A DNA stretch of 64,000 nt from Arenicellales bacterium (GCA_965200765.1 OZ241380.1:2706417-2770416), one strand, 5' to 3'; shown: positions 8,191-30,469, counted from the stretch's first letter. Program-made: numbers and translations. Notes: a model not told the origin generated them from the sequence alone.

Positions 8191-11100
8191 TGTGCCGGTA
8201 GAAGTACCTAATGTTGCATTACTCGGGCTACTGATTTTCAAATCCACTGACTCATCTGGTTCGTCCACTGTATCGGCCAAAACCGAAACATTCAGCAATT
8301 TATTTGTCTCACCCGCCGTAAATGTCAGCTTGCCCGAGGTGACTGCTGTATAGTCCGTTCCTGAAATTGCGGTCCCGGTACCTGCATCTTCATAAGATAC
8401 AGTTACCTGCCTGCCGCTCGCAACACTCAGAACTACTTCAAAAATTAACTTTGCATCAGATTCGCCTTCGCTTACACTTGGCGATGAAATTGAGATCGTC
8501 GGCGCATCGTCGTCGTCCGTAATTGTGCCGGTACCAGTACTCTTGCCCGTCTCAAGCATCGCATTTGCCGGTTCAGCAAGCTGTATCCTGATCGTTTCAT
8601 TCGCCTCGTCAAGTGTATCGCCTCTCACCGTTACGTCAATCGTACCGGTTGTATCACCGACACGAATTGTCAACGTACCAGTCGATGATGCTGTGTAGTC
8701 CGTCCCCAAAGTTGCCGTCCCGCCATCTACCAAACCATACTCCACTGATACTTCCTGGTCACTCGCTGAATCCATTGTTACAGTGAAGGATAGTGTCTTG
8801 GTGCCACTGTCACCTTCTGCAATGCTCGGAGAGTTGATTGACAGTATCGGGATACCGTCGTCGTTTCGTATTGTTCCGGTTCCGGTTGCAGTCTGAATCG
8901 TCGCGTTACTCGCATTACTGAGAGCCACTACAACAGTTTCGTGCGATTCTTCTGTTTCATCTCCTATTATTTCTACATTGAATGTCTTGCTCGAAGCATT
9001 CGCCCCAAAAGTCAGTACACCTCCGGATATCTCTGAATAGTCTTCCCCGGAAGTCGCCGTTCCGGTTCCTGCATCTGCATAAGATACTGAGACCTGCTGG
9101 CTGCTAACTGCACTAAGTGAAACTGTGAACTGCATTGACTTGGTGCCTGTGTCCCCTTCTGCAACGCTTGGCGAATTAATTGAAATCATCGGAGTACCAT
9201 CATCATTCAGAATTGTTCCGGTTCCCGTTCCAGTCGCAATATGTGCTCTCGTTGCCTCACCAAGTTTCAAAACCACAGTTTCGTGAGACTCTACATCTAT
9301 GTCTCCTATCACCTCCAAACTGATACTCTTGCTGGTTTCGCCTGCCGCAAACGTCAACGTACCGCCATCAGTACCTGTATAGTCCGTCCCTGAAGTCGCT
9401 GTACCTGTACCCGAATCTGTATAGGCAACCGTTATAATGTGGCTACTTGACTTGTTCAGTGTCACGGTAAAGTCAAGTGCCTCGTTGCCATCGTTCCCTT
9501 CTGTAACACTCGGTGAAGAAATTGACAAGTAGGGAGCTTCAGTCACTACGATAGCGAAACTCAATTCGGCCTTGTCACCATCCGCATCAGTAGCGACCCA
9601 GGTGTAGCTGGTCGAGTCCATTGAAACAGATGGTGTTCCACTTACAGTGTGTGTTGTTTGGTCGCGAATTACCCCTGCCGGCAAAGCCGGATTCAGTGCA
9701 TAGGTGATCGTACCGTTGCCACCCGTTACCGTCGGTAATGTAAAAGAGGTTATCTCGCTGAGCTGATCCCAAGACCTGTCATCAATGGTGCCGCTGCCAA
9801 ACGTGGGTATGCCGTCCACCTCAATACTGAATGTTAGTTCTGCCTTGTCGCCGTCAGCATCAGTGGCTGTCCAGGTGTATGAAGTAGATGGCAAGGCGAC
9901 TGATGGTGTGCCACTCACTTCGTGCGTCGTCTCGTTGTACACCACTCCCGATGGCAAATTCGGGCTCAACGTGTAGGTAATTGTGCCGTCTCCACCTGTA
10001 ACTGTTGGCAATGAGAATGACGTAATCTGTTCGCGTTGTGTCCACGACTGATTGGCTATGGTGGAATCTCCGAAGGTTGGTGTCAAGTCAACTACTGCAA
10101 GGAGAAAATCTAGCGATTCCGTCCTTCTGTGGCCGTCTGTAACCGTCAGTTTATAAGTTTGTTGTGGTGCATCTGCTCGCGGCGTGCCGGAAATAACCCG
10201 GGTGAGTCTGTTAAATGATAGCCCGGCGGGCAATGTCAGGTTGGTTGCCGTACCTGGTCCAGTCAAGGCATAGCTTAAGTTCCCCCGGCCACCTTCAGCC
10301 GCCGGCAATGTATCAGATACATTTACAAATTTCGTATAGTTTTTGGCAGAAATTACCGCACTCCCAAACGTTGGTACATACTTGACCCGTCCATCGATTC
10401 TGTGGTCTCCATTGTTGGACATTGCATTGCTACCCAAGGCGAGATTGGCATCGACCCCAGACCTGCTACGAATTGTGCCTCCATTCAAACTCAATGCATT
10501 CGATCTGATGCTTAGGCCGTTCAATGCTCGATCTCCGGTTTGAACCCGGTATTTAAACACGATATTATCTCCCCTCGTTGCATGGTGCGAAGCTTGTACT
10601 GAACCACTTGCCAACGCAAGTTGCAACTGTGGTGAGCCTGAAACAGAAATTTGCTTATGAAAGCCAACTCTGACATAGACTTCCTCACCTAACCCATATG
10701 TATTGCCTACGGCAGGATTAAAGAGCATCTGTACATAGTTTACTTTTGGTGCTCCGTTTAGTGCCCCGTTCACCTTGCGTCGACTATCGTCCGCGACCCG
10801 GGTGGAGGACAGGTTCGCTGCAAGTGAATTGGAAGTGGTTGTAATTGACCCACCATTCAGGGACACCGCATTGGCAGGAATACTTACACCATTATCGTCT
10901 CGGTCGCTTGGCTGCACCAGATATTGGAATCGTAACCAAGTCTTTATACTACTGGGGACATAAGTGGCTTTTCGTGTTTGATTGCCAATTGAAATTGACA
11001 ATTGAGGATTGCCTGTCACACTTACAGGCTTGTCAAAGATAACTAACGGATAAATGTACTCTCCTGCGTCATAAGTACTATTTGCAAAAGGCAGGTATGT

Positions 11101-14100
11101 GACTGCTGAATTTGGAAAGCTTATTGATCGGATACGAGCCGCGGTACTCGGAGTTCTCAAGACTTTGTGTAATAAACTGTTATTGATTGCACTGCTCAGT
11201 GTCAGATGCGCAGCATTGCCGGTTGCTCTGCTGTGAACGTATCCGGTTAGTGAGCCCCCGTTTGAAGCAGTCAGTGCATTTGTCGCCACACTCAACCCGT
11301 TTGTGTCGTAGTCACCTGCCGCAACTGTGTATGTAAACGCATATACAGACCCATTGTTGCTACTGCTCCAGGAATCCGTGTAAACTGTTCCGCTTTCCAA
11401 ATTAATGGCCAGCCTTGCAACACGGCTAAAGGTAACGGGCTCACTGAATGTGACTTGCACCGTTATGATTTCACCTTCAACATATCCATAGGGACCTCTC
11501 CGTCCGTTCTGGTCGCAATAAGGATTCGTGGACCTGGGCAAGGTGGGGTGGTTGCACCTCGTAAGATTACGCGGAATACCCCTGATTATTGTGTTTGTAA
11601 TTTTCGGTATCCGACCATTAACTTTGTGCGATGAATGATTCGTGAAGCCATGACTCGCCAAAACTCCACTATGACCATGTGAGATGGCAAGATCTGCAGC
11701 AGTATTGTCATCTGTGCCACTAATTCTTCCACCGTTTAAACCCAGTGGATTCACCGTTCCTGCATAGTTGATGGTAATTCCGTCAGTATCATAATCGCGG
11801 TCTTGTACTGTGTAACTGAAGTTCAGGTAGTAACTGTGAGAATCTGTGAGGCCACGTGATTTCTGCTCGCGAGTGGTGCTCTTGTAAAAAGCATACCTTG
11901 TCAGGCTGCCAATGCCTATTGCCAGCGAAGGGCTTCCACTCACTGTCACGGGTCGGCTAATCTGTACGCGTACCTCAATCTTTTCTCCATTTTTGTATGT
12001 ATTGCCCCGCGCCGGCACAGAAGTAATTTCTATACCCTGTACAAACGGTACAGAAACTTGACCACCGTTAATCTTGTAAGTTTGAAGTAAAGTTGATGTA
12101 GTGAGAACTCCAGCCGTTGCATTCATACCACCGAAATTTCGGATATGTGCGCCGGAAGGTACTGTAAGTGCATTTTGCTTGGAGTAGAATCCATTTCCAT
12201 CGACATCCGATTGTTGTACGCGGTAGCGGAAGTAATGAATTCGTGGACTTACTCCTGCACCAACGTAAGTTGCCTGCCGTGTTGTACTCCCAATCAGCAT
12301 CCCGACACTGGGTGTTCCGGTCACACTTACTGCCTGGCTAAAGGTCAGTTTCAACTCGATTTCTTCACCCCGTTTATAGGTGTCACCTGTTGCAGGGCTG
12401 GAAACTACACTTATACCGGTTACCGACGGCGCATTTGAAACACTGCCATCTACCTTGTGGCCCGACTGGTTGCTCAACGTATGATGTCCAAGAACCAGCA
12501 ACGCGTTGTTGGCATTTTGATCGCGAATCAAACCACCATTCAAGGTCAATGCACCGCGTTCAATACTGATTCCGTTGGTGTCCCGGTCTTCCGAACGCAC
12601 CGTATATCGGAATTGCACATCGTTTCTGTCTGTAATGTAAAAAACGGCTTGACGGGTTCGGGTACCGACTTTCAATGCCAATTGCGGCGACCCTATCACT
12701 TTCATAACCGGAGTCAACGGAGAGGAAAAATTGACCCTCACTATAATCTCCTCTCCGACACCATAGGTATCCCCGCTTGTTGGAGTCGACAATAGTGTTA
12801 CACCGCTCACCAAGGGGCGATTGCCCGTCACACCCGTGGTAAAAGTCAATGTATCGGTATCGCCGTTGTAATCTGTTACTGTCAATGTGTGAGTTCTAAC
12901 GTGCGTTTCTAGAGTCGGCGTTCCTGTAATCGCCGCAGTACTGCCATTGAAAATCAACCCTTGGGGGAGTGATGGTGAAACGGTGTATATGAGCGGTGCA
13001 TCACCGACGGGGGATGTAGGCAATGTGGTAGATACCTCAGTACCAACTGTAAGTCTCAAATCAGGTCCTGTTGCACTGCTGAATTCTGGCCAGGCCCCGG
13101 TTTTACTGCCATCTACTTTTGCAGTTCCCAAATTGGTCAAGATATGGCTGCCTAAAGTCAGAACTGCATCTTCACCCTCGGCATCCCGAATCGAGCCTCC
13201 ATTCAGCGACAGTGCATTCGCGGCAATGCTGATCCCGTTTGAATCCGTGTCGTTCGCTTGAACTGTATAATCAAAGTACAAAACCCGGCCTGCTGTCTCT
13301 CCAAGATCTGTAGCAATTTGCGCTGACATCGGGTTGTAATTGGCCTGGCGCGTGTTGTCGCCAACTGCGATTGCGAGTTGGGGCGTACCAGAAACAGTAA
13401 TCGCCTGGTCAAATTCAACCTTTGCTCTGATCGACCCGGTTCGAGTGTAGGTATTGGCCTGCACAGGCGTGGAAGAGATTCCCACAGCAGACACTTTCGG
13501 CGGCGCAGATACCTTGTGACCGGCCTGGTTTGCAAGAGCCAGGTTGCCCAAACTCAGTGCCGCATTTACATTGCCATTCCTCAGGGTCACACCAGAAGGC
13601 AAGGACAGTGCATTTGCAGCAATACTGATACCGTTATTGTCGTAATCAGAATTCTGTACTGTATAGGAAAAATGAAATTGGGTATTGCCTGTTGGTCCAG
13701 AGCTAGCAGAACTGACTCCACTGACTACACGTGAATTATTGCCAATGGTGAGCGCCAGCTGAGGGGTACCGCTCCCACTTAGTGTCAAACCATCCATACC
13801 GGACGTGAATCTAATGAGAGCTCTTATTGTTTCGCCAGCCTTGTAGGTGTCTCCGGAAGCCGGACTGGAGGAAATACTTACAGTGCGCACCACCGGAATA
13901 ATGTCAGCACTACCGTTTACCTTGTGATTTGGGTCGTTGGTGATGGCAAATCTTCCGATATCCAGCGATGCTGCAACATTGCTGTTATTGAAATCAACAA
14001 TACTGCCCCCGTTCAAAGTCAGTGCGCCGGGGAGGATGCTAAGGCCGTCAGTGTCGAGATCAGATGCTTGCACGGAGTATTTGAAAATATGATTGGTACT

Positions 14101-17100
14101 CACTCCCTTGCATCTGAATGGTGTTGAACCAATGCTGAAATGGCTGTAATTCGCCTGTCGAGTGCGATTGCCGATTGTCAGTGCCAGTTGCGGCGTGCCT
14201 GTAATTGTTACACTTCGATTGAACTTGATTGCAACAACAATCGGATGCTCCGAATTGACTGCATAGAAGTTGTTGGTGCCCGGCTGAGGAGTGGAGCAAA
14301 TCTCCAAAAACGATATTACCGGAGCATTGGTAGCTGCTACCGTGAGCCCGAAAGTCAACTCCGCTGAATCACCATCTGCATCTGTAGCAGTGTAAGTATA
14401 ACTTCGCCGGGCGGCGACTGCTGTGGGCGTGCCCAGGATTCTGCGACTTCGCGCATCAAAGCGTAGTCCGCCAGTCAGTGCAGGAGAAATACTATAGGTG
14501 ATTGCCCCGTCTCCTGTTGCCGTTGGCAATAAAACGGACACTGCGGTGTCAGCAGTGTAGTGCTGGTCACTGATTCGCGCCGATCCAAAACTCACGGGGT
14601 TATCTCGTACCACGTGAGATGCAGAGTTGCTGATTGCGTGGCTGCCCAGTCCCAGAACTGCATCTTCATTTTCACCATCCCGAATGGTTCCACCGTTCAG
14701 ACTGAGTGCATTTGAGGCGATGCCAATGCCGTTTCCATCAAAGTCGGACGACTGTACCGTATAACTGAAGCTCAATTTTTTACCGCTCAGTCCGGTATAG
14801 CTCGCCTGACGCGTATTGCTCCCGACCGTCAGTCCCAGTTGCGGACTTCCGGATACTGATACATCCTGGTCGAACAAAATGTCCACAGTAATTGCATTGC
14901 CCGCAATATAGCCTGCTGTGCCAGACGGAGCCGATGACGTAATCCTCGCACCACTCACCAGCGGCGGAGCAGACACCTTGTGGTTTGCCGCATTGGCAAT
15001 AGCCTGTATACCCAAACCTGCATTGTTTGCCCCGGTCAGGTCCTGAATACTGCCACCGTTCAGTTGCAACGCATCAGCAGCAATACTGATACCATCCGTA
15101 TCTTTATCGCTTGTCTGCACCGTATATCCGAATTCAACAACACTTCCATCATCTCCTACAGCTAATGCTTGTCTCGTATTGCTTCCAATGGCAAGCCCCA
15201 ATTGCGGATTGCCTGTCACTCTGACTGCCTCGCTGAAATCGACCTGCACTTTGATTTTTTCACCCGCTCGGTAAGTGTCGCCACTACGCGGACTGGAAGT
15301 AATAGATACTTGTTTGACAGTGGGTGCCTGGTCAACTTTGCCATCCACTTTGTGACTTGAGGCATTTGTAATGGCATGGCTGCCAAGACCAAGGTTTACT
15401 GTTGCATTGCCAACTTGGGCCACCAAGACCAGACTTGAGTCCTTGCCAAGGGCTTCCGCCACAATACTGATTCCATCCGAATCCAGATCATTCGAAGTTA
15501 CTGTGTATCGAAACAGGTGCCTGCCTGCGGTATTTTGATAGGTGGCATTACGATTACTGCTCCCGATACCAAGAGCCAAATTCATACTGCCAGTACCGCC
15601 GATTTTAATCGGTTTGTGAAACATTACCTCGACAGTGATTGTTTCACCCACACCATAGGTGTCGCTACTCTGCGGGGTACTGATAATCGCAACGTCCGAC
15701 ACAGACACAGGAGGATTTACACCTCCATCCACCTTGTGACCCGATTGATTGCCGAGTGCATGGCTACCAAGATCGAGATTCGCATTAATGCCGTTTGTGC
15801 CCCTTATCGTTGAGCTATTCAGTACTAGCGCATTGGTTGCGATAGCAATGCCGTCGCTATCCCGGTCGGTTGCCTGCACGATGTACTGAAACGTCAGTTT
15901 GCGTCCATCACTTGACAGTTTCTTGAATTTTGCCCCGCGCTTTTCTGTACCGATAACCAACCCCAGCTGAGGCAATCCTGTGACTGACAGCGCCTGATTA
16001 AATGTAAGGTCCACCGTAATCAGCTCGCCGACACCGTAGGTGCTGTTGCTGTACGGCGTACTGGTGATAACGGCATCGCTGACTGTAGGCGCCGCCACGA
16101 TTTCCAGACTAAGGTCAAGTGTGGCCTGATCGCCATCCGCATCGGTGGCGGTCAGCGTATAAGTGGACTTTTGCACTGCGACCTGAGAATTGCCTGCGAT
16201 GGTACCGCCATGTGCAGCATCAGCGGCAGGTGCTGTATAACTGATTCCACTCGGCAAGGTTAAGGTCGCAACGGCCCCCGGTCCGGTCAGAGAATAACCA
16301 AGTGTACCGTCTCCACCGGTTGCAGCAGGTAAATTGAAACTGAATGATTTACCCGTAGCGTAGCGAAGTTCAGGTGCTGAAGAATTTGTAAACGACGGAC
16401 TGAGGTCGCCATTCACTTTGTGGCTCGCATCATTGACAACGGCGTGGCTACCGAGATTCAATTGAGCATTGATTCCGTCGGCATCTTGTATGGTACCACC
16501 GTTCAAAGTGAGTGCAGTCGCGGCGATACTGATGCCATCATTGTCCAGGTCTGCCGAAACTATCCTGTAACTGAAATTCAATCCTTTATTGCCATTGGAC
16601 CGACGGGTGTAGCTTGCCTGCCGCGTTTGTCCCCCGATTGCAAGTGCCAGTTGTGGCGTGCCGGTTATTGTCAAAACCTCGTCGTAGACAACACTTACTA
16701 TGACGTTTTCGTTTGGTCCGTAGGTATCGCCGCTTGCCGGTGCAGAAACAAACGTTACCAGTTGCGGTACAGTGATTCCTCCAGCAACCTTGTGGCTGGC
16801 ATCATTGTTGACTGCATAGCTGTCCAAGTCCAGATTTGCAGCGACAGCTCCGGTACCGCTCCCCTGAATTGTGGCACCATTCAGGGTCAAGGCAGACTTT
16901 GCAATGCTGATACCGTTGTCATCACGGTCTGTGTTCACTACGGTGTAGCTGAAGTTCAGCGTATTGCCGTTGCTCAGACTGCTGTAAGCCGCTTGACGGG
17001 TGGCTGACCCTATGTCAAGCGCCAATCTTGGCGAGCCGGTAACCGAGAGGTTCGAATTGAATTTTACGGCTACATTAACACTTTCACCGGCACCGTATGT

Positions 17101-19155: not shown

Positions 19156-19508
19156 CCCAATTCCTATGACAACTGTTTACCCTTACCGGAAAAAATTTTG
19201 CATGTTAGATCTTTCCGCTTGCTCTCCAATCGGAAAGCAAGAATTTGACTAACTCTCAACTCCTTTCCAAACTGTTTTCAGACTCTTTACCTTGTTAATT
19301 TTTTCAGCTGTGTCAGCATCTCTCACTTTGTTTGTCAACAAGCGATGAAGCAAAGACTCAGCGAAGTTAACGAAATTCAAACACCCCCACGGAATCCGCG
19401 CGAACGGACCCTGTGTTGATTCTTGATACTGTTTGGGACGGCTAGAGGGTCGGAGCTGTAGCGATTATCGTACTTGCCCAACCTCGCCCAAACATGCGGG
19501 AAACAGAA

Positions 19509-21486: not shown

Positions 21487-21816
21487 TCAAGCCTCAAATT
21501 CCGAAATTCGGATGGTACCGTCTACCATTTTCGACTTCCGTTCCACCACCTTCCGAATCTTTTTCCAGAACGATTGATTCAGGTCAAAATCAGCTGCGAT
21601 CGAAGTGCCCAAGAGCAATATCAGCAAGTCCGCACACTCCTCGGCGATCTGCTCCTTGCCCTTGCCTTTGGTCACGGCCGCTGAAATTTCACCCAGTTCC
21701 TCAACCATCAGTGCAATTCGATACTTCAGATCGTGACCACCCTTTCCCGCCATATCAAACCTCTCATGAAACGCTTGTACCGCATTTCGCATCTCTGTAA
21801 AAGAATCTTGATTCAT
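21487..21816 (-). CDS. Small MazG-like nucleotide pyrophosphohydrolase domain protein
   Basis: 109-aa all-helical protein with EELGE....(x).. and EE.AD.L motifs ([26 protein letters not shown]), typical of the MazG/NTP-PPase family. It has a 4-nt ATGA overlap with the glyQS stop. Confidence 0.65.
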
Positions 21817-24800
21817 TGCTTCACCTCACCCGGTTGCAACTGGGAAATGTCCGCTACCTTCAGAAACATATTGTTGATAAATGAAACCAGTGCCACCCGA
21901 TTCATCCGGAGTTCAATATTTTCGTCCATCACCATGACTTCGTCAAAAAACAGGTCAATCGGCTCTTTCAAGACCGCAAGCTCATGCAGTACACCTGAAT
22001 GGTCAGATTTGCCCAGCAACGGTTCAATTCGCTGATTGACTTCTTTCGCCTTTCGGTACAGAGACTGTTCCGATTTCTCGATCAGCAGTTCAGAGGTCAC
22101 TCCATCGCGAACCAGTACATCGGCAGAACGCAGAATATTCCTGATGCGCTTGTTTGCCACCACGAGATTTTCAAACTCTGGCAGATTCCTGAACTGACGA
22201 ACAGCCCTCAGTCGCATGTCGAACTCTAGCAACCGCGATAGCTTCAATTCGTACACCGATGCAAATTCGTCGGCGGTATATCCTTGATCTATGCAATACC
22301 CTCTGAGACGATCCAGCATGAATTCAAATACCTTTTGTATCGTAGCTTCGTCTGGCACTGCAACTCCGTTATTGTCATCGCCGGCACGCTGTTCTTGAAA
22401 CAATTCAACCGCTTTGATCATGACAAATTGAATATCAAGGTTCAGTTTGCGCTCAATCACAATTCTGAGTACTGCAATCGCCATGCGTCGCAGTGAGTAC
22501 GGGTCGCGGTCACCTTTAACAACTTCTCCCGCTGCCGTCAGTCCCACAAGAGAATCAATTCGATCTGCAATTGCGACACTGCAACCGGCCGGAGATTCAG
22601 GAAGCATGCCAGTCGCGGATCTCGGATAATAACTTTCCTCAATCGCCTGCGCCAGCGTAACCAATTCGCCGTTTGCCTCCGCATAGTATCGGCCCGCAGT
22701 ACCCTGCAACTCGGGAAATTCGCCTACCAGCTCGGTTACCAGGTCGGCCTTTGACAGCAACGCTGAACGATGTGCGACTGTTGCGTCATAACCCAATGTT
22801 TCAGCAATAAATTCAGCGAGTTGCGATATGCGTATGGACTTGTCATACACTGAACCAAGCTTGTTGTGAAACACCAGGGTTTTCAGGTGCGGCAACTTGT
22901 CTTCCAAAGAACTTTTCAGGTCCTGATGCCAGAAAAATTCAGCATCTGCAAGCCGGGCACGCAATACCCGCTCATTCCCGTGCCTGACTCTTTGCAAAAT
23001 TTCTTCATCATCCAGATTGATGTTCGCCACGCCAACAAACTTCGGCATCAAGTTGCCATCTGCATCCACCACCGAAAAGTACTTCTGATGATGCTCCATG
23101 GAAGTAACCAGAACCTCCTGGGGCAGTTTCAGAAACCGCTCGTCAAACGAACCCAAAAATGCAAACGGCCATTCAACCAGATTGGTAACCTGATTCAACA
23201 AGGTTTCCTTGACTACCACATTTCCGCCTGTTACAGACTCCAAGCTCTGAATTTGCTTCAATATTAATTCTTTTCGTCGCTGTGAGTCAGCAATGACCCG
23301 GCCATGCGCTTCCAATTGTTCTTCGTAGTCATCCGCACAGGGGAGGTTGATGTTTCCCGGATGGTGAAAACGGTGCCCGACTGTACTGGAGCCGGACCCA
23401 ACCGAAAAGACTTCGCAGGGTATTTCCTCATTCCCGTGAAGAAGAACCGCCCAGTGTACTGGTCGAACAAACTGAGCCTCGCTGTTGCCCCAGCGCATTC
23501 GCTTGGAAATCGGCAACCTCGCCACTGTGTTTTCAATACATTCCGGAATTGAATCAACCGCACTTCTGCCAGGGTCCGTATACCGGTACGCAAGATAACT
23601 TGCCTTGTCGGTTTCCACTCGTACCAATTCATCCACTTCCAACCCGCAGGATTTTGCAAACCCCGTGCTGGCAGCTGTCGGATTACCATCCGCGTCAAAT
23701 GCTCGGTTTAATGGCGGACCACGACGTTCCTTTTGTACTTCAGGGCTTCTGCGAAGCACCTCTGCAATCAATACGCCGATACGTCTGGGAGTGCCAAAAC
23801 TTTGGGACTGTTGCTCCATCGTTTCAATCAGTCCTGCACGATGCAGTTCCTCTTTCAACCCTTTCTCTAGTGCTACGGCAAGTGTTTCAACCGAGTCAGG
23901 CGGCAATTCTTCGGTGCCAATTTCAAGCAATAGCGAAGCCGGTTTTGACGATTGGGACTCTGTTGAAATATTACTGGACGCTGTAGCGCTTTCAACTGTT
24001 GATGTTTCCTGCCGACGCAACCCGGGAAATCCTTGAGTCTCCCGACTTTGGTAGTATGCTTCTGCAACCATTCTGGCAAGATTGCGCACCCGTCCAATGT
24101 ATCGTGCCCGCTCTGTCACACCGATCATTTTTCTCGCATCAAGCAAATTGAAGGTATGCGATGCTTGCAACACCTTCTCGTATGCTGGAAACGGCAGATC
24201 CTGATTCACCAGTTCTTTGCATTGAATCTCCAGAGAGTCGAATTTTTCAAACAAAAAATCCGTATCAGCGTATTCAAAATTAAAGGCTGATTGTTCTTTC
24301 TCGAACTGAAGGTAAAGATCGCCGTAGGTCCAGTTGTCATTCCACTTCAGGTCGAAAACGTTCTCGACTCCCTGTACATACATTGCAATCCGCTCCAGTC
24401 CATAAGTGATTTCTCCGGTTACCGGTCGACACTCCATGCCACCTGCCTGCTGAAAATAGGTTACCTGAGTTATCTCCATCCCGTTGAGCCAGACTTCCCA
24501 ACCCAGACCCCAAGCTCCCAATGTGGGTGATTCCCAGTCATCTTCAACGAATCGTATATCGTCTTGCAAGGGGTCAATATTCAATCGGCGCAATGAGTCC
24601 AGATAAATTTCCTGGAAATCAATGGGCGACGGTTTCAGTACCACCTGATATTGAAAATAGTGCTGCAAACGATTTGGATTTTCGCCATACCGGCCATCAG
24701 TTGGTCGTCTCGATGGTTGGACATAGGCTGACTTTGTCGGTTCGGGTCCAACTGCCGCGAGAAAGGTTGCCGGATGGAATGTACCAGCACCGACTTCCAT

Positions 24801-24878
24801 GTCATAAGGCTGTAGGATGACACACCCTTGCTCTGACCAGTAATCGTTTAACGCAAATATGATTTGTTGAAAGTTCAA
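21813..24878 (-). CDS. glyQS: Fused glycine--tRNA ligase alpha + beta subunits (GlyQ-GlyS single chain, 1021 aa)
   Basis: The N-terminus [36 protein letters not shown] is GlyQ. After a Ser/Thr-rich linker ([28 protein letters not shown]), [12 protein letters not shown] starts GlyS. One uninterrupted ORF with a TTG start at 24878. Confidence 0.9.
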
Positions 24879-25288
24879 GGCAATTCGCTTGTTTTCACAG
24901 ACAGTATTGTTTGATTGATGCGAGGACAGCGATTGAATGACAGGAGCTGACTCATGCTTGTCTATTGTACTCGCGCCGGGTGCTTCGTTTGAACTCGGTA
25001 ATGAATATCATGACCGGCTAGCAGGATACAGGAGCTAGTCTTGTAGTCGCTATGCTATTGACATTGTGCGTCGATTCGACTTTGAGTTATTGCTTTGCTC
25101 TCCGGTAAGCTACGATTGCCCACTTCAATTGGCCAGTTCGCCAAGTTTCTGCTCATCGCTCATCCAGCAAAGGCTTTCACTGGATATTTGCAATCCTACC
25201 CCAAGGAAATTGGTAAATTTGCCTTCAAATGATTTCCATCGGGGAGTACCAGATTCATTAAACCGTTTTCCAGAAATTCAATTCCATG

Positions 25289-27259
25289 CTAATCTTCCCC
25301 ATCCTCTTCAATGTTTTGCAGGAGTCGGGAAATTCGACCTTGTACGTATGTACTCTTGTCCAAAAATTCCTGATATGCATTGAAGGCGCTGTTTATCAGT
25401 TGGTCGTAAAGAACCACCCTTACTCCTTTAACATTCAACATTGACTCTGATTCTTGTCTTTCTTGGAAATTACTCCAGTCATTCAGCTCATTTCCCACAA
25501 CACAAACGACATCAATTTTAGGATTTTGCTCACCTTTCACCTCTGACAATAATTTCTTTAGAGCATTACGGTAAAGATTCACTTGCTTTAAGAGTGAAAA
25601 AGTATCTGTCCGTACACTTGCTCGTTTCAATTCTACAATGATGTGCTTCCCCGCTGTAGTTCTATATTTGATATCAACGCGACCTTGTAACTCTTCATCA
25701 GTCAACGAAGTTGAAATTTTCTCGAATTCCTTGATTAATCGCTGCTCCATATATTCAGAACCAGACACCTTTTCCCATGATGGATCCAACAACCATAAGT
25801 GATCAAACAAGTGTTTCTGAATTACACGCTCCTTTTCGTCGTCTTCAATCAGATTCCGCAACGCTCTGACAACACCAATACGACCCTTGACAATCTGATG
25901 AAACAGAGTTGCTTCCAATTCATCCAAATGTCCAAAAACCTTTCCGAACTCGACGATGGTATCACCAGTTAGATCCCGTAATGCATCAAGGTTCTGCTTT
26001 GCTTTCAAACACTCAAAGGCCAGTACACTGTATTGAAACAGCATCGCACGCTGTTCCGGCTTGTCTACCATGATTCGGTTGACCTTTCCAAAAATCTGTT
26101 CGGCCCGATGTTGGTCATCCTTGCCCAATGATTCGAACCACTCTTTAATCGCGTAACTTTCAAACGCGACTTCCTTTGCAACTTTGTTTCTCAGTGTTGT
26201 CCAATGGTTCTTGATGTAAGTGATTTCTGATTTGACAGCTTCACAAAGTGCAACATTTCGTTCATCGTCTTCAACCACAGACTGGCGATTCGTTGTTACA
26301 ATATCCGGATAGACATCGTCATCAAGGTCATCCGCACAAATCTCTCCAATAATGAATTTTGAGTAAAGGCCCGTTTCACCGAAGGGTTGAAGTATGTCTT
26401 CCTGAACAAGCTTGCCCCGGGCCATTACAACGATCTTGTTCCAGCTATCGCCTTCTGTCATTAGCTGACCAGACTCCTTGACAGTTCCTATCCATCCTTC
26501 AAATTTTGACTCTTCACGTTCCTCTATATGCTCCAAATTGCTGCACAACTCAATGCATTTTCGTCCGTACTCTCCATAGTACCAGACATATTGGAGATTT
26601 CGGTAATAGTCACGGTCTGTTACATCAATCGGTTCGTTGTTCAAATTTATCTCAAATTCATGGTCTGAACCCAGTATGCTAAACCGACGAGCCAATCGCC
26701 TCCGCAAAGCTTTCTCCGTCTGGTTTAGCCTTTTTCTTGGCTTGCGCAGAACAATACGGGTACCGCTTGGCATGGAATCCATTTCCGGTTCTATCTGGAG
26801 AGGATGGTAGGTACCCTTTGTGCGTCCTTCTCGAATCGCTTCCTGAATTTCCGGGAGGGACATGCTAAAGGCTATCGGCTCCTTACCCTCAAATCGCGAA
26901 TGAACATCAATAACATTTGCAACAGAAAACAGAGACAGCTTGCCAATTCCCTTTCGACCCATTACAGGGCGTTGAAACTTGGAAGTGACCGGATCTTCAT
27001 ACTCCCGACGCCTGTACCCAACTCTGAGGAATTTCTCATTGATATCTTCCACAGACATGCCATGGCCGTCATCACAAATCGAAATCGTTTCAGCATGCGA
27101 ATTGATTCTGATTGTTACAGAAGTGGCATCTGCATCCCATGAATTTGCAACCGCCTCGGCAAGTACCGCAGGCACGTTGCTGTAAAGATTGACCCCCAAA
27201 TGATTGAGCACATTCAAATCAATCGTCATTTTGAAAATTTTCTTGACTTCAGCATCCAT
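25289..27259 (-). CDS. GHKL (MORC/MutL/Hsp90-like) ATPase fused to a C-terminal PD-(D/E)xK-type nuclease motif, copy A (656 aa)
   Basis: Bergerat-fold motifs are E35-AVA-N39-SW-D42, DDGHGM and GRKGIGKLS. The C-terminus reads HLFDHLWLLDPSWEKV ... GRVD529IKYRTTAGKHIIVE543LK545R; I checked the DNA at 25625-25690. Confidence 0.75.
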   Translation of the reverse strand: MDAEVKKIFKMTIDLNVLNHLGVNLYSNVPAVLAEAVANSWDADATSVTIRINSHAETISICDDGHGMSVEDINEKFLRVGYRRREYEDPVTSKFQRPVMGRKGIGKLSLFSVANVIDVHSRFEGKEPIAFSMSLPEIQEAIREGRTKGTYHPLQIEPEMDSMPSGTRIVLRKPRKRLNQTEKALRRRLARRFSILGSDHEFEINLNNEPIDVTDRDYYRNLQYVWYYGEYGRKCIELCSNLEHIEEREESKFEGWIGTVKESGQLMTEGDSWNKIVVMARGKLVQEDILQPFGETGLYSKFIIGEICADDLDDDVYPDIVTTNRQSVVEDDERNVALCEAVKSEITYIKNHWTTLRNKVAKEVAFESYAIKEWFESLGKDDQHRAEQIFGKVNRIMVDKPEQRAMLFQYSVLAFECLKAKQNLDALRDLTGDTIVEFGKVFGHLDELEATLFHQIVKGRIGVVRALRNLIEDDEKERVIQKHLFDHLWLLDPSWEKVSGSEYMEQRLIKEFEKISTSLTDEELQGRVDIKYRTTAGKHIIVELKRASVRTDTFSLLKQVNLYRNALKKLLSEVKGEQNPKIDVVCVVGNELNDWSNFQERQESESMLNVKGVRVVLYDQLINSAFNAYQEFLDKSTYVQGRISRLLQNIEEDGED

Positions 27260-27337
27260 AGCTTTTCAAATTTTTGCTTACACTTTTTGCAATTGCTCGT
27301 GCCAGTGCGACTGGCACTGCATTGCCTATCCATCGGG
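27249..27337 (-). pseudogene. Relic of the last ~28 codons of the C5-methyltransferase gene, left by the tandem duplication
   Basis: 27249-27337 matches 29342-29430 with one mismatch seen (gccagtGcgactggc vs gccagtTcgactggc). It translates RWIGNAVPVALARAIAKSVSKNLKSYGC*. Homology to the methylase ends at tccatcggg (27329-27337). Confidence 0.85.
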
Positions 27338-27381
27338 AAGTGCCAGATTTAATGAACCTTTTCCAGAAATTCAATTCCATG

Positions 27382-29352
27382 CTAATCTTCCACATCCTCT
27401 TCAATTTTTTGTAGTAGTCGGGAAATTCGTCCTTCTACGTATGTACTCTTTTCCAAAAATTCCTGGTATGCTTTGTAGGCATTGTTTATCAGTTGGTCGT
27501 AAAGGACAACTCTAGCACCATCAATCCTCAGTATCTCTTCGGATCTCTGTCTTCCATTATGGTCTTCCCAATCCTTAAGATCGCGACCCACAACACATAT
27601 AATTTCGATTATGGACTCTTGGTCGTTTTCAGTTGCGGACAATATTTTCTTTAGAGTATTTCGATAAATTTCAATTTGCCTCAATAGCGTAAGGGTATCT
27701 GTCCGAACACTTGCTCGTTTCAATTCTACAATGACATGCTTACCTGCAGTAGTTCTATATTTAATGTCAACGCGGCCTCGTAACTCTTCATCAGTCAACG
27801 AATTTGAAATATTCTCGAATTCCTTGGCTAATCGCTGCTCCATGTATTCAGAACCAGACACCTTTTCCCATGATGGATCCAACAACCATAAATGATCAAA
27901 CAAGTGTTCCTGAATCACACGTTCTTTCTCATTTTCGTCAACCAAATCCTGTAATGCTCTAACAACACCAATACGACCCTTGACAATCTGATGATACAGA
28001 GTTGCTTCCAAATCATCCAAATGTCCAAAAACCTTTCCGAACTCAACAATGGTATCACCAGTTAGATCCCGTAATGCATCAAGGTTCTGCTTTGCTTTCA
28101 AACTCTCAAAGGCTAGTGCACTGAATTGAAACAGTATCGCACGCTGTTCTGGATTGTCTACCATGATTCGATTGACTTTTCCAAAAATCTGTTCGGCCCG
28201 GCGCTGGTCATCCTTGCCCAATGATTCGAACCACTCTTTAATCGCGTTACTTTTAAACGCTACTTCCTTTGCAACTTCGATTCTCAGTTTTGTCCAATGT
28301 TTCTTTATGTAGGTTATTTCTGATTTGACAGCCTCACAAAGTGCAACATTTCGCTCATCGTCTTCAACCACAGACTGACGATTCGTTGTTACAATATCCG
28401 GATGGGCATCTTCATCAAGATTATCCGCACAGATCTCTCCAATAATGAATTTTGAGTATAGGCCCGTTTCACCGAAGGGTTGAAGTATGTCTTCCTGAAC
28501 AAGCTTGCCTCGGGCCATTACCACGATCTTGTTCCAACTGTCGCCTTCTGTCATTAGCTGACCAGACTCCTTGACAGTTCCTATCCATCCTTCAAAATTT
28601 GACTCTTCACGTTCCTCTTTATGCTCCAAATTGCTACACAACTCAACGCATTTTCGTCCGTATTCTCCATAGTACCAGACATATTGGAGATTTCGGTAAT
28701 AGTCACGATCTGCTATATCAATTGGTTCGTTGTTCAAATTTATATGAAAATTGTAGTCTGAACCCAGTATGCTAAACCGACGAGCCAATCGCCTCCGCAA
28801 AGCTTTCGGTGTCTGGTTTAACCTTTTTCTTGGCTTGCGCAGAACAATACGGGTACCGCTTGGCATGGAATCCATTTCTGGTTCTATCTGGGGAGGGTGA
28901 TAGGTGTCTTGTGTGCGTCCTTCTCGAATCGCTTCCTGAATTTCCGTGAGCGACATGCTAAAGGCTATCGGCTCCTGATCTTTAATTCGCGAATGAACAT
29001 CAATAACATTTGCAACAGAAAACAAAGACAGCTTGCCAATTCCCTTTCGACCCATTACAGGACGTTGGAACTTGGAAGTGACTGGATTTTCATACTCCCG
29101 ACGCCGGTACCCAACTCTGAGGAATTTCTCATTGATATCTTCCACAGACATGCCATGGCCGTCATCACAAATCGAAATCGTTTCAGCATGCGAATTTATT
29201 CTGATTGTTACAGAAGTGGCATCTGCATCCCATGAATTTGCAACCGCCTCGGCAAGTACCGCAGGCACGTTGCTGTAAAGATTGACCCCCAAATGATTGA
29301 GCACATTCAAATCAATCGTCATTTTGAAAATTTTCTTGACTTCAGCATCCAT
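27382..29352 (-). CDS. GHKL ATPase - PD-(D/E)xK-type nuclease fusion, copy B (656 aa)
   Basis: Paralog of copy A offset by exactly 2093 bp. The first 122 aa differ at a single residue (D89N). The same GHKL and VDIKY...VELKR motifs are present. Its start overlaps the methyltransferase stop by 11 nt (ATGGATGCTGA). Confidence 0.75.
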   Translation of the reverse strand: MDAEVKKIFKMTIDLNVLNHLGVNLYSNVPAVLAEAVANSWDADATSVTIRINSHAETISICDDGHGMSVEDINEKFLRVGYRRREYENPVTSKFQRPVMGRKGIGKLSLFSVANVIDVHSRIKDQEPIAFSMSLTEIQEAIREGRTQDTYHPPQIEPEMDSMPSGTRIVLRKPRKRLNQTPKALRRRLARRFSILGSDYNFHINLNNEPIDIADRDYYRNLQYVWYYGEYGRKCVELCSNLEHKEEREESNFEGWIGTVKESGQLMTEGDSWNKIVVMARGKLVQEDILQPFGETGLYSKFIIGEICADNLDEDAHPDIVTTNRQSVVEDDERNVALCEAVKSEITYIKKHWTKLRIEVAKEVAFKSNAIKEWFESLGKDDQRRAEQIFGKVNRIMVDNPEQRAILFQFSALAFESLKAKQNLDALRDLTGDTIVEFGKVFGHLDDLEATLYHQIVKGRIGVVRALQDLVDENEKERVIQEHLFDHLWLLDPSWEKVSGSEYMEQRLAKEFENISNSLTDEELRGRVDIKYRTTAGKHVIVELKRASVRTDTLTLLRQIEIYRNTLKKILSATENDQESIIEIICVVGRDLKDWEDHNGRQRSEEILRIDGARVVLYDQLINNAYKAYQEFLEKSTYVEGRISRLLQKIEEDVED

Positions 29353-30469
29353 AGCTTTTCAAATTTTTGCTTACACTTTTTGCAATTGCTCGTGCCAGTT
29401 CGACTGGCACTGCATTGCCTATCCATCGGGCAACTGTAGAGGTATTCGGTTGTTCGCCACTCTTTGAAAACTGGTAATTACGTGGGAATGTCTGCAATAA
29501 TGCCGCTTCCCGCAAAGATATTGCTCTGTCTTGTTCGGGATGCCCGAACCTGCCGTTTCCAAATCCGTAGCATTGAGTTGTAATCGTTGGGCCAAGTTCG
29601 TTCCACATCATACGTCCGTAAACACTACTGTAAGATTCCCCTGTCTTCTTTTTGTGGCAATTTGCAACCAGGAACTGGTCCCAATCTCGCCACGAACCCC
29701 CTGGTTTGGAGGCTCGAATTCTCGCCAGATTAATTTCTGTTAGCCGGCTTGAACGGTGCAAAGCATCTTCTGCATCGCATTCCCCGGCCGAAATAGGAGG
29801 TAATGTAGAGATTGCATCTTTGACAGTGATGTAGTTTTCGGGTTCATGCGTGGGCGGCACAAGTTCAATTTTTCCCAACTTTGAAGCGAGCAATACAAGA
29901 CGCTTTCGAAGCTGAGGGACTCCGTAGTCCGCACACTTTATGATGTTCCACCAAACAAAATAGCCATCATCTTTCAATTTCTGTTCAAACTCCTGAAACA
30001 AATGGCCACCTTTATAACTGACCAGTCTCGGGACATTTTCCATAGATACAATATCGGGCTGCGATTCACGAATGATTTGACTAAAGTCTCGTAGTAGCCG
30101 CCACTTGCCTTGTTTTCCACCGTTGGTATAAGTCGAAAAAGGTTGACATGGTGCACAACCAACCAGAATTTTCGGTTCATCCCGGTGAAAATATTCATTC
30201 AAATCCACACCTTGAATGTCCTGAATATCCCGCTTCAGAAATTCTGCATTATTATTGTTCCTTTCATAAGCATAGCTGCACGTAGCATCCGTATCAATTC
30301 CGGCTGCAACCGTAAAACCCTCCAGCAGGAATCCATGGCTCAAGCCACCAATTCCACAAAACAAATCAACAACTCTTCCGGGCCTGTTGTTCGTGTGTGC
30401 TTTCAGTGAGCGCCCATGGCATCGGTCTGCTCTCTTTGCAGGCTTGCAAATGACTTCGTGCTGTTCCAT
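29342..30469 (-). CDS. DNA (cytosine-5)-methyltransferase
   Basis: All hallmark motifs are present: DLFCGIGGLSHGF (I), GCAPCQPFS (IV, catalytic Cys), SMENVPRL (VI), QLRKRLVLLAS (VIII) and GNAVPV (X). Confidence 0.9.
   Translation of the reverse strand: MEQHEVICKPAKRADRCHGRSLKAHTNNRPGRVVDLFCGIGGLSHGFLLEGFTVAAGIDTDATCSYAYERNNNNAEFLKRDIQDIQGVDLNEYFHRDEPKILVGCAPCQPFSTYTNGGKQGKWRLLRDFSQIIRESQPDIVSMENVPRLVSYKGGHLFQEFEQKLKDDGYFVWWNIIKCADYGVPQLRKRLVLLASKLGKIELVPPTHEPENYITVKDAISTLPPISAGECDAEDALHRSSRLTEINLARIRASKPGGSWRDWDQFLVANCHKKKTGESYSSVYGRMMWNELGPTITTQCYGFGNGRFGHPEQDRAISLREAALLQTFPRNYQFSKSGEQPNTSTVARWIGNAVPVELARAIAKSVSKNLKSYGC

What the first reader, a model, noticed from the sequence alone, without database searches (positions are those of the whole stretch)
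25229..29430. Visible tandem-duplication scar: 2093-bp unit, 9-bp microhomology junction, methylase 3' relic, and mosaic divergence between the two ATPase-nuclease copies
The two 656-aa genes are offset by exactly 2093 bp.

Between them, 27249-27337 repeats the last ~28 codons of the methylase gene (29342-29430) with one mismatch seen. Homology to the methylase stops at tccatcggg (27329-27337). From there, 27338-27381 matches the sequence downstream of copy A (25238-25288).

The same 9-mer, tccatcggg, occurs at all three places (25235-25243, 27329-27337, 29422-29430). This fits unequal crossing-over at a microhomology.

Divergence between the copies is strongly mosaic. The relic plus the first ~122 codons are almost identical, with one amino-acid change. 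The middle of the gene has scattered substitutions. A patch just C-terminal of the nuclease core is heavily rewritten (copy A about 25400-25567, copy B about 27493-27660): SEVKGEQNPKIDVVCVVGNELNDWSNFQERQESESMLNVKG versus SATENDQESIIEIICVVGRDLKDWEDHNGRQRSEEILRIDG.

This pattern suggests 5' gene conversion together with diversification of a specificity or regulatory segment, or recombination with a third allele.
Basis: seen in the sequence. Interest (0 to 1): 0.6.

Follow-up and report, generated by a model that had tools for sequence, protein, structure and literature searches.

The report
Duplicated restriction-enzyme gene, two old alleles
A bacterial restriction-modification operon carries its nuclease gene twice in tandem; the duplication scar is real and is shared by related strains. 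The two copies differ mainly through recombination and gene conversion, not through new diversification, so this is a clean but fairly ordinary example of defence-gene evolution.

Summary
On the minus strand lie a C5 DNA methylase (29342-30469) and two intact 656-aa genes of the BbrUII/HgiDII restriction-enzyme family, copy B (27382-29352) and copy A (25289-27259), 2093 bp apart. Between them sit 44 nt of sequence normally found downstream of R and an 89-nt relic of the methylase 3' end. The 9-mer TCCATCGGG marks both unit ends and the joint, and occurs nowhere else in the window.

Divergence is strongly mosaic:
- relic plus first 246 nt: 0.4-0.6%
- middle: 7.9%
- a 192-nt patch: 40.6%, with third codon positions 63% different
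- 3' end: 9.8%

The array is not an artefact. The same junction occurs in independent contigs of related strains, including a diverged array (L090), so it arose once and is not recent. Comparing arrays shows concerted evolution at the 5' end; in one strain the tract reaches codon 467. The patch is an old A-type/B-type dimorphism that is orthologous across arrays and under purifying selection (dN/dS about 0.2). It is therefore not post-duplication diversification. The methylases that accompany either type are nearly identical, so the patch is unlikely to set specificity. Related strains also show collapse to a hybrid single copy and methylase-less copies. Novelty and interest are modest.

The parts
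29342..30469 (-). C5 cytosine DNA methylase (M), first gene of the operon. Its last 11 nt overlap the start of copy B.
   Evidence: Pfam PF00145, E=9e-64. PADLOC MTase_II. TIGR00675 dcm.
27382..29352 (-). Copy B (upstream copy) of the GHKL-ATPase/nuclease restriction enzyme, 656 aa, with the B-type patch.
   Evidence: NCBIfam NF050001 BbrUII/HgiDII family, 759 bits against a cut-off of 550. PF13589. All 94 family-invariant residues are kept.
25289..27259 (-). Copy A (downstream copy), 656 aa, with the A-type patch.
   Evidence: NF050001, 760 bits. All 94 invariant residues are kept. An exact protein match occurs on independent contig L001.
27249..27337 (-). Relic of the last 89 nt of the methylase gene, carried in front of copy A.
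   Evidence: 88/89 identical to 29342-29430, with the mismatch at 27307. The same relic is present but more decayed in L090: 3 substitutions and a 1-nt deletion.
27338..27381 (-). D_B: the 44 nt downstream of the copy B stop, homologous to the sequence downstream of copy A. It forms the left side of the duplication joint.
   Evidence: It shares a 1-nt deletion with the B-type module L004. Its distal half is the sequence specific to the glyQS locus.
25244..25288 (-). D_A: the 45 nt downstream of the copy A stop, marking the end of the duplicated unit.
25235..25243 (.). Distal copy of the 9-mer TCCATCGGG, at the end of the unit.
   Evidence: It varies between strains.
27329..27337 (.). Junction copy of the 9-mer.
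   Evidence: In L090 it reads CCCGATGGG in gene orientation.
29422..29430 (.). Copy of the 9-mer inside the methylase gene (codons R-W-I before IGNAVP), marking the start of the unit.
27014..27337 (-). Homogenised 5' tract on the copy A side: relic plus R nt 1-246.
   Evidence: Only 2 mismatches (27104, 27307) against 29107-29430. Genome-pattern sites outnumber orthologue-pattern sites 6:0.
29107..29430 (-). Homogenised 5' tract on the copy B side: methylase 3' end plus R nt 1-246.
25412..25603 (-). A-type patch (codons 553-616), covering the helix, strand and helix that follow the E-L-K motif of the C-terminal domain.
   Evidence: 78/192 nt differ from copy B. It is identical in L002 and L005, and differs at 4 nt from the A copy of L090. 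Secondary structure comes from the AlphaFold models.
27505..27696 (-). B-type patch (codons 553-616).
   Evidence: The closest sequences are L004 (23 nt), L090 copy B (24 nt) and L006 (39 nt), against 78 nt to copy A.
27913..28002 (-). Second, smaller high-divergence block in copy B (gene nt 1351-1440). The matching stretch of copy A is 25820-25909.
   Evidence: 16/90 nt differ from copy A, against 1 to L090 copy B and 5 to L006.
27249..27380 (-). 43-codon ORF that starts 1 nt after the copy B stop, reads through D_B and the relic, and ends at the old methylase stop inside the copy A start. It is probably incidental.
   Evidence: In L090 the 1-nt deletion in the relic breaks it.

Best explanation
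The interval is a real head-to-tail duplication of the restriction-endonuclease gene inside a Type II restriction-modification operon. The gene order on the minus strand is M, R_B, R_A.

Shown:
- The repeated unit is 2093 bp. It runs from a short motif (CCCGATGGA in gene orientation) 80 nt before the methylase stop to the same motif 45 nt after the R stop.
- The joint (R-downstream sequence, motif, methylase 3' relic) is identical in architecture in several related strains, including a clearly diverged array. It therefore formed once, in a common ancestor of these arrays.

Inferred mechanism: illegitimate recombination or a replication template switch at a microhomology of 4 to 9 bp.

Three processes explain the mosaic since then.
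1. Gene conversion repeatedly homogenises the 5' end. In this genome the tract is the relic plus about 246 nt of R. In another strain it reaches about 1400 nt.
2. The middle of the gene is a patchwork produced by conversion and by exchange of alleles between strains. All sampled alleles differ by 6-8% there, against 1-3% in the housekeeping flanks.
3. A block of about 190 nt, encoding a helix-strand-helix of the C-terminal nuclease-like domain, is an old two-type polymorphism. The A type is always in the downstream copy and the B type in the upstream copy. The two types are saturated at synonymous sites, each is conserved within its type, and the block has never been converted. It came from a far-diverged allele, not from mutation after the duplication.

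Whether the two copies were identical at birth or already different cannot be resolved.

Both copies are intact, keep all family-invariant residues and evolve under purifying selection. One methylase serves both, so they most likely cut the same unmethylated site as two isoforms (inferred). Arrays can collapse again. One related strain has a single hybrid gene with a B-derived 5' part and an A-derived 3' part.
For: Anatomy and mosaic:
-.

Family assignment:
- NF050001 at 759 bits against a cut-off of 550; PF13589; PF00145.
- The fold of residues 1-450 resembles Hsp90, TRAP1 and MORC2.

Independent arrays with the same joint:
- L001/L092, a 95-kb contig 98.5% identical over 14 kb.
- L093, a 527-kb contig.
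- L090/L091, a 367-kb contig with offset 2092 and a decayed relic.
- Two further contigs each carry one member of both protein clusters.

Concerted evolution at the 5' end:
- In nt 1-246 there are 6 sites where paralogues agree within a genome but differ between arrays, and 0 orthologue-pattern sites. The rest of the gene has 18 and 80. Fisher p = 9e-5.
- Protein columns 8, 49, 54, 56 and 87 behave the same way across four array lineages.
- One pair is identical through residue 467.

Patch:
- 0 genome-pattern against 62 orthologue-pattern sites.
- dS 1.8-2.8 and dN/dS 0.15-0.23 between types; dN/dS 0.07-0.29 within types.
- The B type is also found in L004/L094 at another locus and, more distantly, in the sister species L006.

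Other points:
- Orthologue dN/dS is 0.18 (A copies) and 0.22 (B copies).
- Methylases of A-type and B-type modules are nearly identical.
- The L002 gene is a hybrid: nt 1-600 equal L090 copy B and nt 600-1971 equal window copy A.
- No terminator-like site lies on the minus strand between the genes.
Against: - The donor of either patch type was not found. The best outside identity is 59% for the A patch and 49% for the B patch among 114 homologues, and a patch-only search returned nothing useful.
- Excluding the patch, the 5' excess of genome-pattern sites is only marginally significant (6:0 against 17:15, p = 0.06).
- In L001 the two 5' ends differ at 7 of 246 nt, so homogenisation is not uniform.
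- The two extra arrays (14.9-kb and 46.7-kb contigs) are inferred from equal contig lengths, not from DNA.
- Nothing here tests expression, activity or recognition sequence. GTCGAC, the site of HgiDII, is not depleted in the window: 12 observed against 16.8 expected.
Confidence: 0.8

Rival explanations
1. The array was 'born diverged'. An incoming B-type allele from another strain, sitting at the same glyQS-adjacent locus, was joined to a resident A-type operon in one event. That event combined one homologous exchange near the R 5' end or in the methylase with one microhomology join or template switch. It is therefore an allele capture, not a duplication of one sequence.
For: - The 44 nt after copy B carry the B-allele-specific 1-nt deletion seen in L004, yet end in the sequence specific to the glyQS locus.
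- A-type and B-type single-copy alleles both exist today at this locus: L002, L005 and L003 against L006.
- Outside the patch, L004 is equidistant from copies A and B, with 134 and 136 differences.
- The locus clearly recombines between strains. Window and L001 differ at 4 of about 3900 nt inside 25243-29160, against 2-4% in the flanks.
Against: - It cannot be distinguished from 'duplication first, patch imported later' with the present data, because later conversion and recombination have overwritten the middle.
- It needs the resident methylase 3' end and R 5' end to be used twice, which requires two sister chromosomes or a template switch.
- I first favoured a very recent capture. That was refuted by L090, which shows the joint is older than the split of the array lineages.
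Confidence: 0.3
2. A recent in-place duplication was followed by rapid adaptive rewriting of a specificity or regulatory segment in one copy.
For: - The patch is the most divergent stretch, with 27 of 50 residues differing in aa 551-600.
- It lies in the nuclease-like domain.
- The family is somewhat more variable than average there, at 1.5-1.9 bits.
Against: - Synonymous sites in the patch are saturated: third positions differ at 63% and dS exceeds 1.5. dN/dS is 0.15-0.28.
- Both patch types occur in other genomes and are orthologous between arrays.
- The patch is conserved within each type.
- The partner methylases do not differ.
- The mismatch spectrum is not adenine-biased, so no retroelement-type targeted mutagenesis is involved.
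- Other family regions are as variable: aa 141-160 at 2.04 bits and the C-terminus at 1.99 bits.
Confidence: 0.03
3. Assembly artefact: two strain alleles from a mixed sample were stitched in tandem.
For: - Several closely related strains coexist in one metagenome, sample ERZ25070167.
- One contig (L093) ends inside the second copy.
Against: - The joint is a novel sequence (D_B, 9-mer, methylase relic) that no single-copy strain contains.
- A 9-bp overlap is far below assembler overlap lengths.
- The same joint is found in at least three other contigs, one with its own substitutions and an indel in the relic.
- Both exact proteins are recorded on one 3.29-Mb contig.
Confidence: 0.02

Closest known systems
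BbrUII/HgiDII family Type II restriction-modification systems (R.HgiDII: N-terminal GHKL domain plus a C-terminal domain; PMC2441816)
   Same: - Both copies score far above the curated NCBIfam equivalog cut-off over their full length.
- A C5 methylase sits immediately upstream with overlapping stop and start. That is the arrangement in about 65 of the 80 family loci fetched from other genomes.
   Different: - This operon has two R genes behind one methylase. That was seen in only one other lineage among those 80 loci, a Cenarchaeum MAG, where the copies are not in strict tandem.
- The recognition site is unknown, and GTCGAC is not depleted in the window.
paraMORC3-type GHKL + S5 + restriction-endonuclease-fold proteins of R-M operons (Iyer, Abhiman and Aravind 2008, PMC2292703)
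   Same: - The architecture matches: a GHKL ATPase, a middle domain resembling those of Hsp90 and MORC, and a C-terminal alpha/beta domain with conserved D...E-x-K.
- It is associated with cytosine methylases.
- Some members stand alone without a linked methylase, as that paper also noted.
   Different: Membership in paraMORC3 itself was not tested, because no model of that family was available here. The nuclease fold is supported only weakly.
Heterodimeric Type IIT enzymes with two adjacent paralogous R genes (BbvCI R1/R2, Bpu10I; PMC6326814)
   Same: Two homologous endonuclease genes lie side by side in one R-M operon.
   Different: - BbvCI subunits share only about 27% identity, neither is active alone, and the target is asymmetric.
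- Here the copies are 86% identical and there is a single methylase.
- Each type also occurs alone, as an intact single gene, in related strains. An obligate heterodimer is therefore unlikely.
Concerted evolution and domain shuffling in bacterial tandem paralogue clusters (the Staphylococcus aureus lpl cluster, Tsuru and Kobayashi 2008, PMC2568036)
   Same: - A conserved stretch inside tandem paralogues serves as the site of homologous recombination.
- The unit that stays together spans the 3' part of one gene, the spacer and the 5' part of the next.
- Copy number and combinations differ between strains.
   Different: There are only two copies here, the genes belong to a defence operon, and the origin of the array can be read from a microhomology joint.
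Microhomology-mediated tandem duplication in bacterial chromosomes (general knowledge, not checked in a paper here)
   Same: It is a head-to-tail repeat whose novel joint lies in a few shared bases that are also present at both ends of the unit.
   Different: Such duplications are usually unstable and identical. This one has persisted long enough to be shared by diverged strains, and it holds two different alleles.

Membership tests
BbrUII/HgiDII family restriction enzyme (NCBIfam NF050001) | Full-length match above the curated equivalog cut-off. | tested here: met
   759.8 and 759.3 bits against a cut-off of 550. Residues 9-650 match profile positions 1-659.
BbrUII/HgiDII family restriction enzyme (NCBIfam NF050001) | N-terminal GHKL (Bergerat-fold) ATPase with intact motifs. 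| tested here: met
   - PF13589, E=1e-18.
- E35, N39, D63, G65, G67 and G101-G106 are invariant and present in both copies.
- Foldseek top hits are Hsp90/TRAP1 and MORC2.
BbrUII/HgiDII family restriction enzyme (NCBIfam NF050001) | Cognate C5 methylase adjacent. | tested here: met
   PF00145 gene at 29342-30469, overlapping the copy B start by 11 nt. The same order holds in most family loci.
BbrUII/HgiDII family restriction enzyme (NCBIfam NF050001) | Cleavage of unmethylated GTCGAC (the HgiDII specificity). | not testable with these tools
   Only an indirect check was possible. GTCGAC occurs 12 times against 16.8 expected in the window, so it is not depleted.
PD-(D/E)xK nuclease fold (C-terminal domain) | Alpha/beta core with conserved D...(D/E)-x-K and similarity to known members. 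| tested here: inconclusive
   - D529 is nearly invariant; E543 and K545 are invariant.
- Sub-threshold SduA_C hits occur in 15 of 28 members, with a few to PDDEXK_4, YhcG_C and HSDR_N_2.
- The C-terminal model (pLDDT 82) has the Shedu nuclease domain 8ti9 as its top PDB hit, but weakly: E=3e-3, TM 0.35-0.39.
Microhomology-mediated tandem duplication | Head-to-tail unit with a novel joint lying in bases shared by both unit ends. | tested here: met
   The 9-mer occurs at 25235, 27329 and 29422 and nowhere else in 64 kb. Left of the joint is R-downstream sequence and right of it is the methylase 3' end. The length of the microhomology at the time of the event is uncertain (4-9 bp), because the distal site varies among strains.
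Concerted evolution by gene conversion between tandem paralogues | Paralogues within a genome are more alike than orthologues between genomes, in a bounded tract. | tested here: met
   - In nt 1-246, window A-B differ at 1 site and L090 A-B at 3, against 7-9 between arrays.
- Site patterns are 6:0.
- The protein-level pattern holds in four arrays, and one tract reaches residue 467.
Heterodimeric Type IIT restriction enzyme (BbvCI/Bpu10I type) | Two different subunits, both required, usually with two methylases for an asymmetric site. | tested here: not met
   There is only one methylase in the operon. A-type alone (L002, L005, L003) and B-type alone (L004, L094, L006) occur as intact genes. 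Subunit interaction itself is not testable here.
Diversity-generating retroelement target | Variable region differing from a template repeat almost only at adenines, with a reverse transcriptase nearby. | tested here: not met
   Patch mismatches fall on all four bases: A 26, G 19, C 17, T 16. No reverse-transcriptase gene lies in the operon.

The most novel reading that the evidence does not exclude
The A-type/B-type difference in the nuclease sub-domain is a balanced polymorphism. The array is kept because it stacks both isoforms in one cell. The benefit could be that a phage anti-restriction protein which blocks one form leaves the other active, or that A/B mixed dimers cut differently. On this reading gene conversion stops short of the patch because selection removes converted arrays, not only because divergence blocks recombination.

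Several observations fit this without proving it. Every array seen keeps one patch of each type, even the array homogenised through codon 467. The two types are old and each is conserved. Both copies are under purifying selection.
Probability: 0.15. Interest if true: 0.6.

Novelty: new variant of a known kind. Interest (0 to 1): 0.33.

Why it matters
This is a compact natural record of how a defence operon changes. It shows one microhomology joint, gene conversion of variable length from the 5' end, an old allelic block that resists conversion, collapse back to a hybrid single gene, and loss of the methylase with the nuclease gene left intact. All of these states are visible among co-occurring strains.

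It also warns against reading a divergent patch between paralogues as post-duplication adaptation. Here synonymous saturation and comparison with other strains show that the patch is inherited allelic variation.

For restriction-enzyme biology, it offers a pair of natural isoforms of a GHKL-nuclease family that has never been solved structurally. The two differ mainly in one helix-strand-helix element, which could help to map what that element does.

Tried and rejected
- **Young allele capture.** I first favoured a very recent one-step capture. Window and L001 are almost identical across 25243-29160 while their flanks differ by 2-4%. L090 carries the same joint with a decayed relic and diverged copies, so the joint is older. 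The near-identity of window and L001 instead reflects a recent exchange of the cassette between strains.
- **Donor of the A-type patch.** None was found among 114 family homologues. A search with the 98-aa patch region gave one irrelevant 109-aa hit.
- **JGI metagenome scan with copy B.** It found only a 51% relative.
- **Exact look-up of copy B.** It was 'not on record', although the cluster table holds the protein.
- **Translational coupling through a 43-codon bridging ORF**. Rejected as a conserved feature, because the ORF is frameshifted in L090.
- **Retroelement-type targeted mutagenesis of the patch.** Rejected on the mismatch spectrum.
- **GTCGAC avoidance as a clue to specificity.** No signal.
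- **Promoter and terminator scan.** It gave no more sites than shuffled sequence.


Full report
**1. What is there**

On the minus strand the window carries an operon-like row of three genes.
- A C5 cytosine methylase lies at 29342-30469 (PF00145, E=9e-64).
- Two 656-aa ORFs follow: copy B at 27382-29352 and copy A at 25289-27259.
- Both ORFs are full-length members of NCBIfam NF050001, 'BbrUII/HgiDII family restriction enzyme', at 759 bits against a cut-off of 550. Both have an N-terminal GHKL ATPase domain (PF13589).
- PADLOC calls them Type II restriction enzymes and calls the methylase a Type II methyltransferase.
- An AlphaFold model (pLDDT 77.5) has Hsp90, TRAP1 and MORC2 as best PDB matches for the N-terminal two thirds.
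- The C-terminal domain has a nearly invariant D529 and invariant E543 and K545. It gives sub-threshold matches to the Shedu nuclease domain in 15 of 28 family members. A weak top structural hit points to the same domain, 8ti9. A PD-(D/E)xK nuclease is therefore likely but not proven.
- R.HgiDII was described as a GHKL domain plus an unassigned C-terminal domain (PMC2441816). The architecture also fits the paraMORC3 type described by Iyer et al. (PMC2292703).
- The island has 43.5% G+C against about 48.5% in the flanks. It sits between a ThiI/NFACT-R-like gene, tusA and glnA on one side and a fused glyQS gene on the other.

**2.

- The copies are offset by 2093 bp.
- 27249-27337 repeats the last 89 nt of the methylase gene with a single mismatch at 27307.
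- 27338-27381 is homologous to 25244-25288, the sequence after the copy A stop. It differs by five substitutions and one 1-nt indel.
- TCCATCGGG occurs exactly three times in the 64-kb window, at the two ends of the unit and at the joint.
- The copies differ at 203 of 1971 nt and 89 of 656 residues.
- The differences fall into four segments: nt 1-246 at 0.4%, 247-1656 at 7.9%, 1657-1848 at 40.6% and 1849-1971 at 9.8%.
- The segmentation also holds on third codon positions alone, where 0 of 200 permutations reached the observed gain.

**3. It is not an artefact and not private to this genome**

- The exact copy A protein is encoded on an independent 95-kb metagenome contig (L001). That contig is 98.5% identical to the window over 14 kb and has the same two-copy structure and joint.
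- A 527-kb contig (L093) has the same array and ends inside the second copy.
- A 367-kb contig (L090/L091) carries M, a B-type R and an A-type R next to glyQS, with an offset of 2092 bp and the same joint. Its copies differ from the window's by 6.5% (A) and 7.3% (B).
- The relic in L090 has decayed, with 3 substitutions and a 1-nt deletion relative to its own methylase.
- Two more contigs each hold one member of the A-like and one of the B-like protein cluster. That these are arrays is an inference from equal contig lengths.
- The joint therefore arose once, before these array lineages separated.
- The distal motif varies among strains (CCCGATGGA, CTCGATGGA, CCCGTTGGA). The microhomology used may therefore have been anywhere from 4 to 9 bp.

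**4. The 5' end is homogenised by gene conversion**

The comparison uses the window array and the L090 array.
- In nt 1-246, six sites have the two paralogues of one genome agreeing with each other and differing from the other genome. No site groups orthologues.
- In the rest of the gene the counts are 18 and 80 (Fisher p = 9e-5). Excluding the patch they are 17 and 15 (p = 0.06).
- At protein level, columns 8, 49, 54, 56 and 87 vary between four array lineages but are always the same in both copies of one array.
- In one array the two proteins are identical through residue 467 and differ only in the C-terminal 190 residues.
- In the window the tract includes the non-coding relic: 27014-27337 against 29107-29430 has 2 mismatches. 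This points to a mechanical process rather than selection on the protein.
- L001 is less homogenised, with 7 differences in 246 nt. Its methylase and the first 192 nt of its copy B carry strain-level divergence from the window, while 25243-29160 is almost identical between the two (4 mismatches). This indicates a recent exchange of most of the cassette between strains.

**5. The patch is old allelic variation, not new diversification**

- Between the two types dS is 1.8-2.8 and dN/dS is 0.15-0.23. Third positions differ at 63%, and the transition:transversion ratio drops from 2.2 in the middle of the gene to 1.4 in the patch.
- Between arrays the patch is orthologous. The A copies differ at 4 of 192 nt and the B copies at 24, against 76-79 between types. 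There are 62 orthologue-pattern sites and no genome-pattern sites.
- The A type also occurs in single-copy genes at the same locus (L002, L005, L003).
- The B type occurs in a single-copy module at a different locus, in L004 and in the circular 3.15-Mb genome L094. It also occurs, more distantly, in the sister species (L006-L008).
- One allele (P0130) combines an A-like body with a B-type patch.
- Within each type the patch is conserved, with dN/dS 0.07-0.29.
- The mismatch spectrum is not adenine-specific, which excludes retroelement-driven mutagenesis.
- In the wider family this region is moderately variable (1.5-1.9 bits per column), but other regions are equally variable.
- No outside donor was found for either type.
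- The methylases that accompany A-type and B-type enzymes are nearly identical over their whole length. The two enzyme types therefore most likely share one recognition sequence, and the patch is unlikely to be a specificity element. This is an inference.
- In the models the patch forms helix 553-575, strand 582-588 and helix 598-610, directly after the E-L-K strand.

**6. The middle of the gene and the wider population**

- Outside the patch all sampled alleles are about equally distant, at 6-8%. The housekeeping flanks of the same strains differ by 1-3%.
- Copy B has a second small block (nt 1351-1440) that matches L090 copy B and the sister species rather than copy A.
- The single-copy gene of L002 equals L090 copy B for nt 1-600 and window copy A for nt 600-1971. 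Its methylase is 0.9% from that of L090. This is what an unequal exchange between the two copies of an array would leave, or an inter-strain recombinant.
- Both copies in the window keep all 94 residues that are invariant in 117 family members.
- Orthologue comparisons give dN/dS of 0.18 and 0.22. Both genes are therefore maintained.

**7. What cannot be decided**

Two scenarios remain.
- The two copies were identical at birth, and one later received a foreign patch.
- The array was formed between two already different alleles.

The 44 nt after copy B combine a B-allele-specific 1-nt deletion with sequence specific to the glyQS locus. This fits a B-type allele that once sat at this locus, but later conversion has erased the decisive signal.

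The biological benefit of two copies, if any, is unknown. An obligate heterodimer like BbvCI (PMC6326814) is unlikely, since each type also exists alone and there is only one methylase. The recognition site is also unknown, and GTCGAC is not depleted.

**8. Comparison and verdict**

- The system is a member of the HgiDII/BbrUII family of Type II R-M systems with an unusual M-R-R layout.
- Among 80 family loci from other genomes, extra R copies were seen only in one Cenarchaeum MAG.
- The processes involved are all known: a microhomology joint, concerted evolution with a conserved recombination stretch as in the S. aureus lpl cluster (PMC2568036), and allele shuffling of defence genes.
- The finding is a well-documented, tidy case rather than a new kind of system.
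- Novelty is 'new variant of a known kind' and interest is about 0.33.

Noticed in passing
L003:5650-6012; L006:5800-6012 (also L007, L008): Related strains carry an intact R gene at the same locus but no methylase. The gene is 656 aa and keeps all 94 family-invariant residues. The methylase was removed by two different deletions. In L006 its first ~55 nt are joined to the R start through a shared GCCATGG. In L003 the deletion runs from 38 nt upstream of the methylase to about 18 nt before its stop. About a dozen of the 80 family loci in other genomes also lack an adjacent methylase. Whether an unlinked methylase protects these genomes could not be checked.
   Followed up: partly
L002:6001-7971: The single-copy R gene of this strain is a clean hybrid. 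Nt 1-600 match the B copy of the L090 array (0-1 differences per 120 nt). Nt 600-1971 match the window's A copy. It also carries E543D in the E-x-K motif.
   Followed up: yes
window 27249-27380 (-): A 43-codon ORF (MELNFWKRFIKSGTSRWIGNAVPVALARAIAKSVSKNLKSYGC) starts 1 nt after the copy B stop. It reads through the joint and the methylase relic and ends at the old methylase stop, overlapping the copy A start. It could preserve translational coupling, but it is frameshifted in L090.
   Followed up: yes
L004:4887-9924; L094:4887-9924: A B-type M-R module, with a methylase 92% identical to the window's, sits at a different chromosomal site between an ABC transporter gene and rplM-rpsI. It is directly followed by a second R-M pair (an N6/N4 methylase and a DpnII-like gene). 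L094 is a circular 3.15-Mb genome and has a transposase nearby. The module has therefore moved between loci.
   Followed up: partly
L052:1-11070; L053; L044, L068, L081 (MAG OY282369, 'uncultured Cenarchaeum sp.'): One archaeal sponge-symbiont MAG holds at least seven copies of this enzyme family. One locus has one methylase followed by three R genes spaced 3-5 kb apart, with a DDE transposase gene between them.
   Followed up: partly
window 1-19176 (-): The first 19 kb of the window is a single stop-free reading frame of at least 6392 codons that runs off the window. It has a signal-peptide-like start and repetitive T/S/A-rich modules. In L090 the homologous gene is annotated at 10,532 residues.
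   Followed up: no
window 21813-24878 (-): glyQ and glyS are fused into one 1021-aa gene. Between closely related strains this gene is unusually divergent: up to about 10% in 22000-22750 against L002, where neighbouring genes differ by 1-2%. This suggests recombination tracts extending out from the R-M island.
   Followed up: partly
window 25235-30469: The R-M island has 43.5% G+C against about 48.5% in both flanks, consistent with horizontal origin.
   Followed up: yes
P0130 (3.2-kb contig, protein only): This allele clusters with the A-like proteins overall but carries a B-type patch. The patch is therefore reshuffled independently of the rest of the gene.
   Followed up: partly
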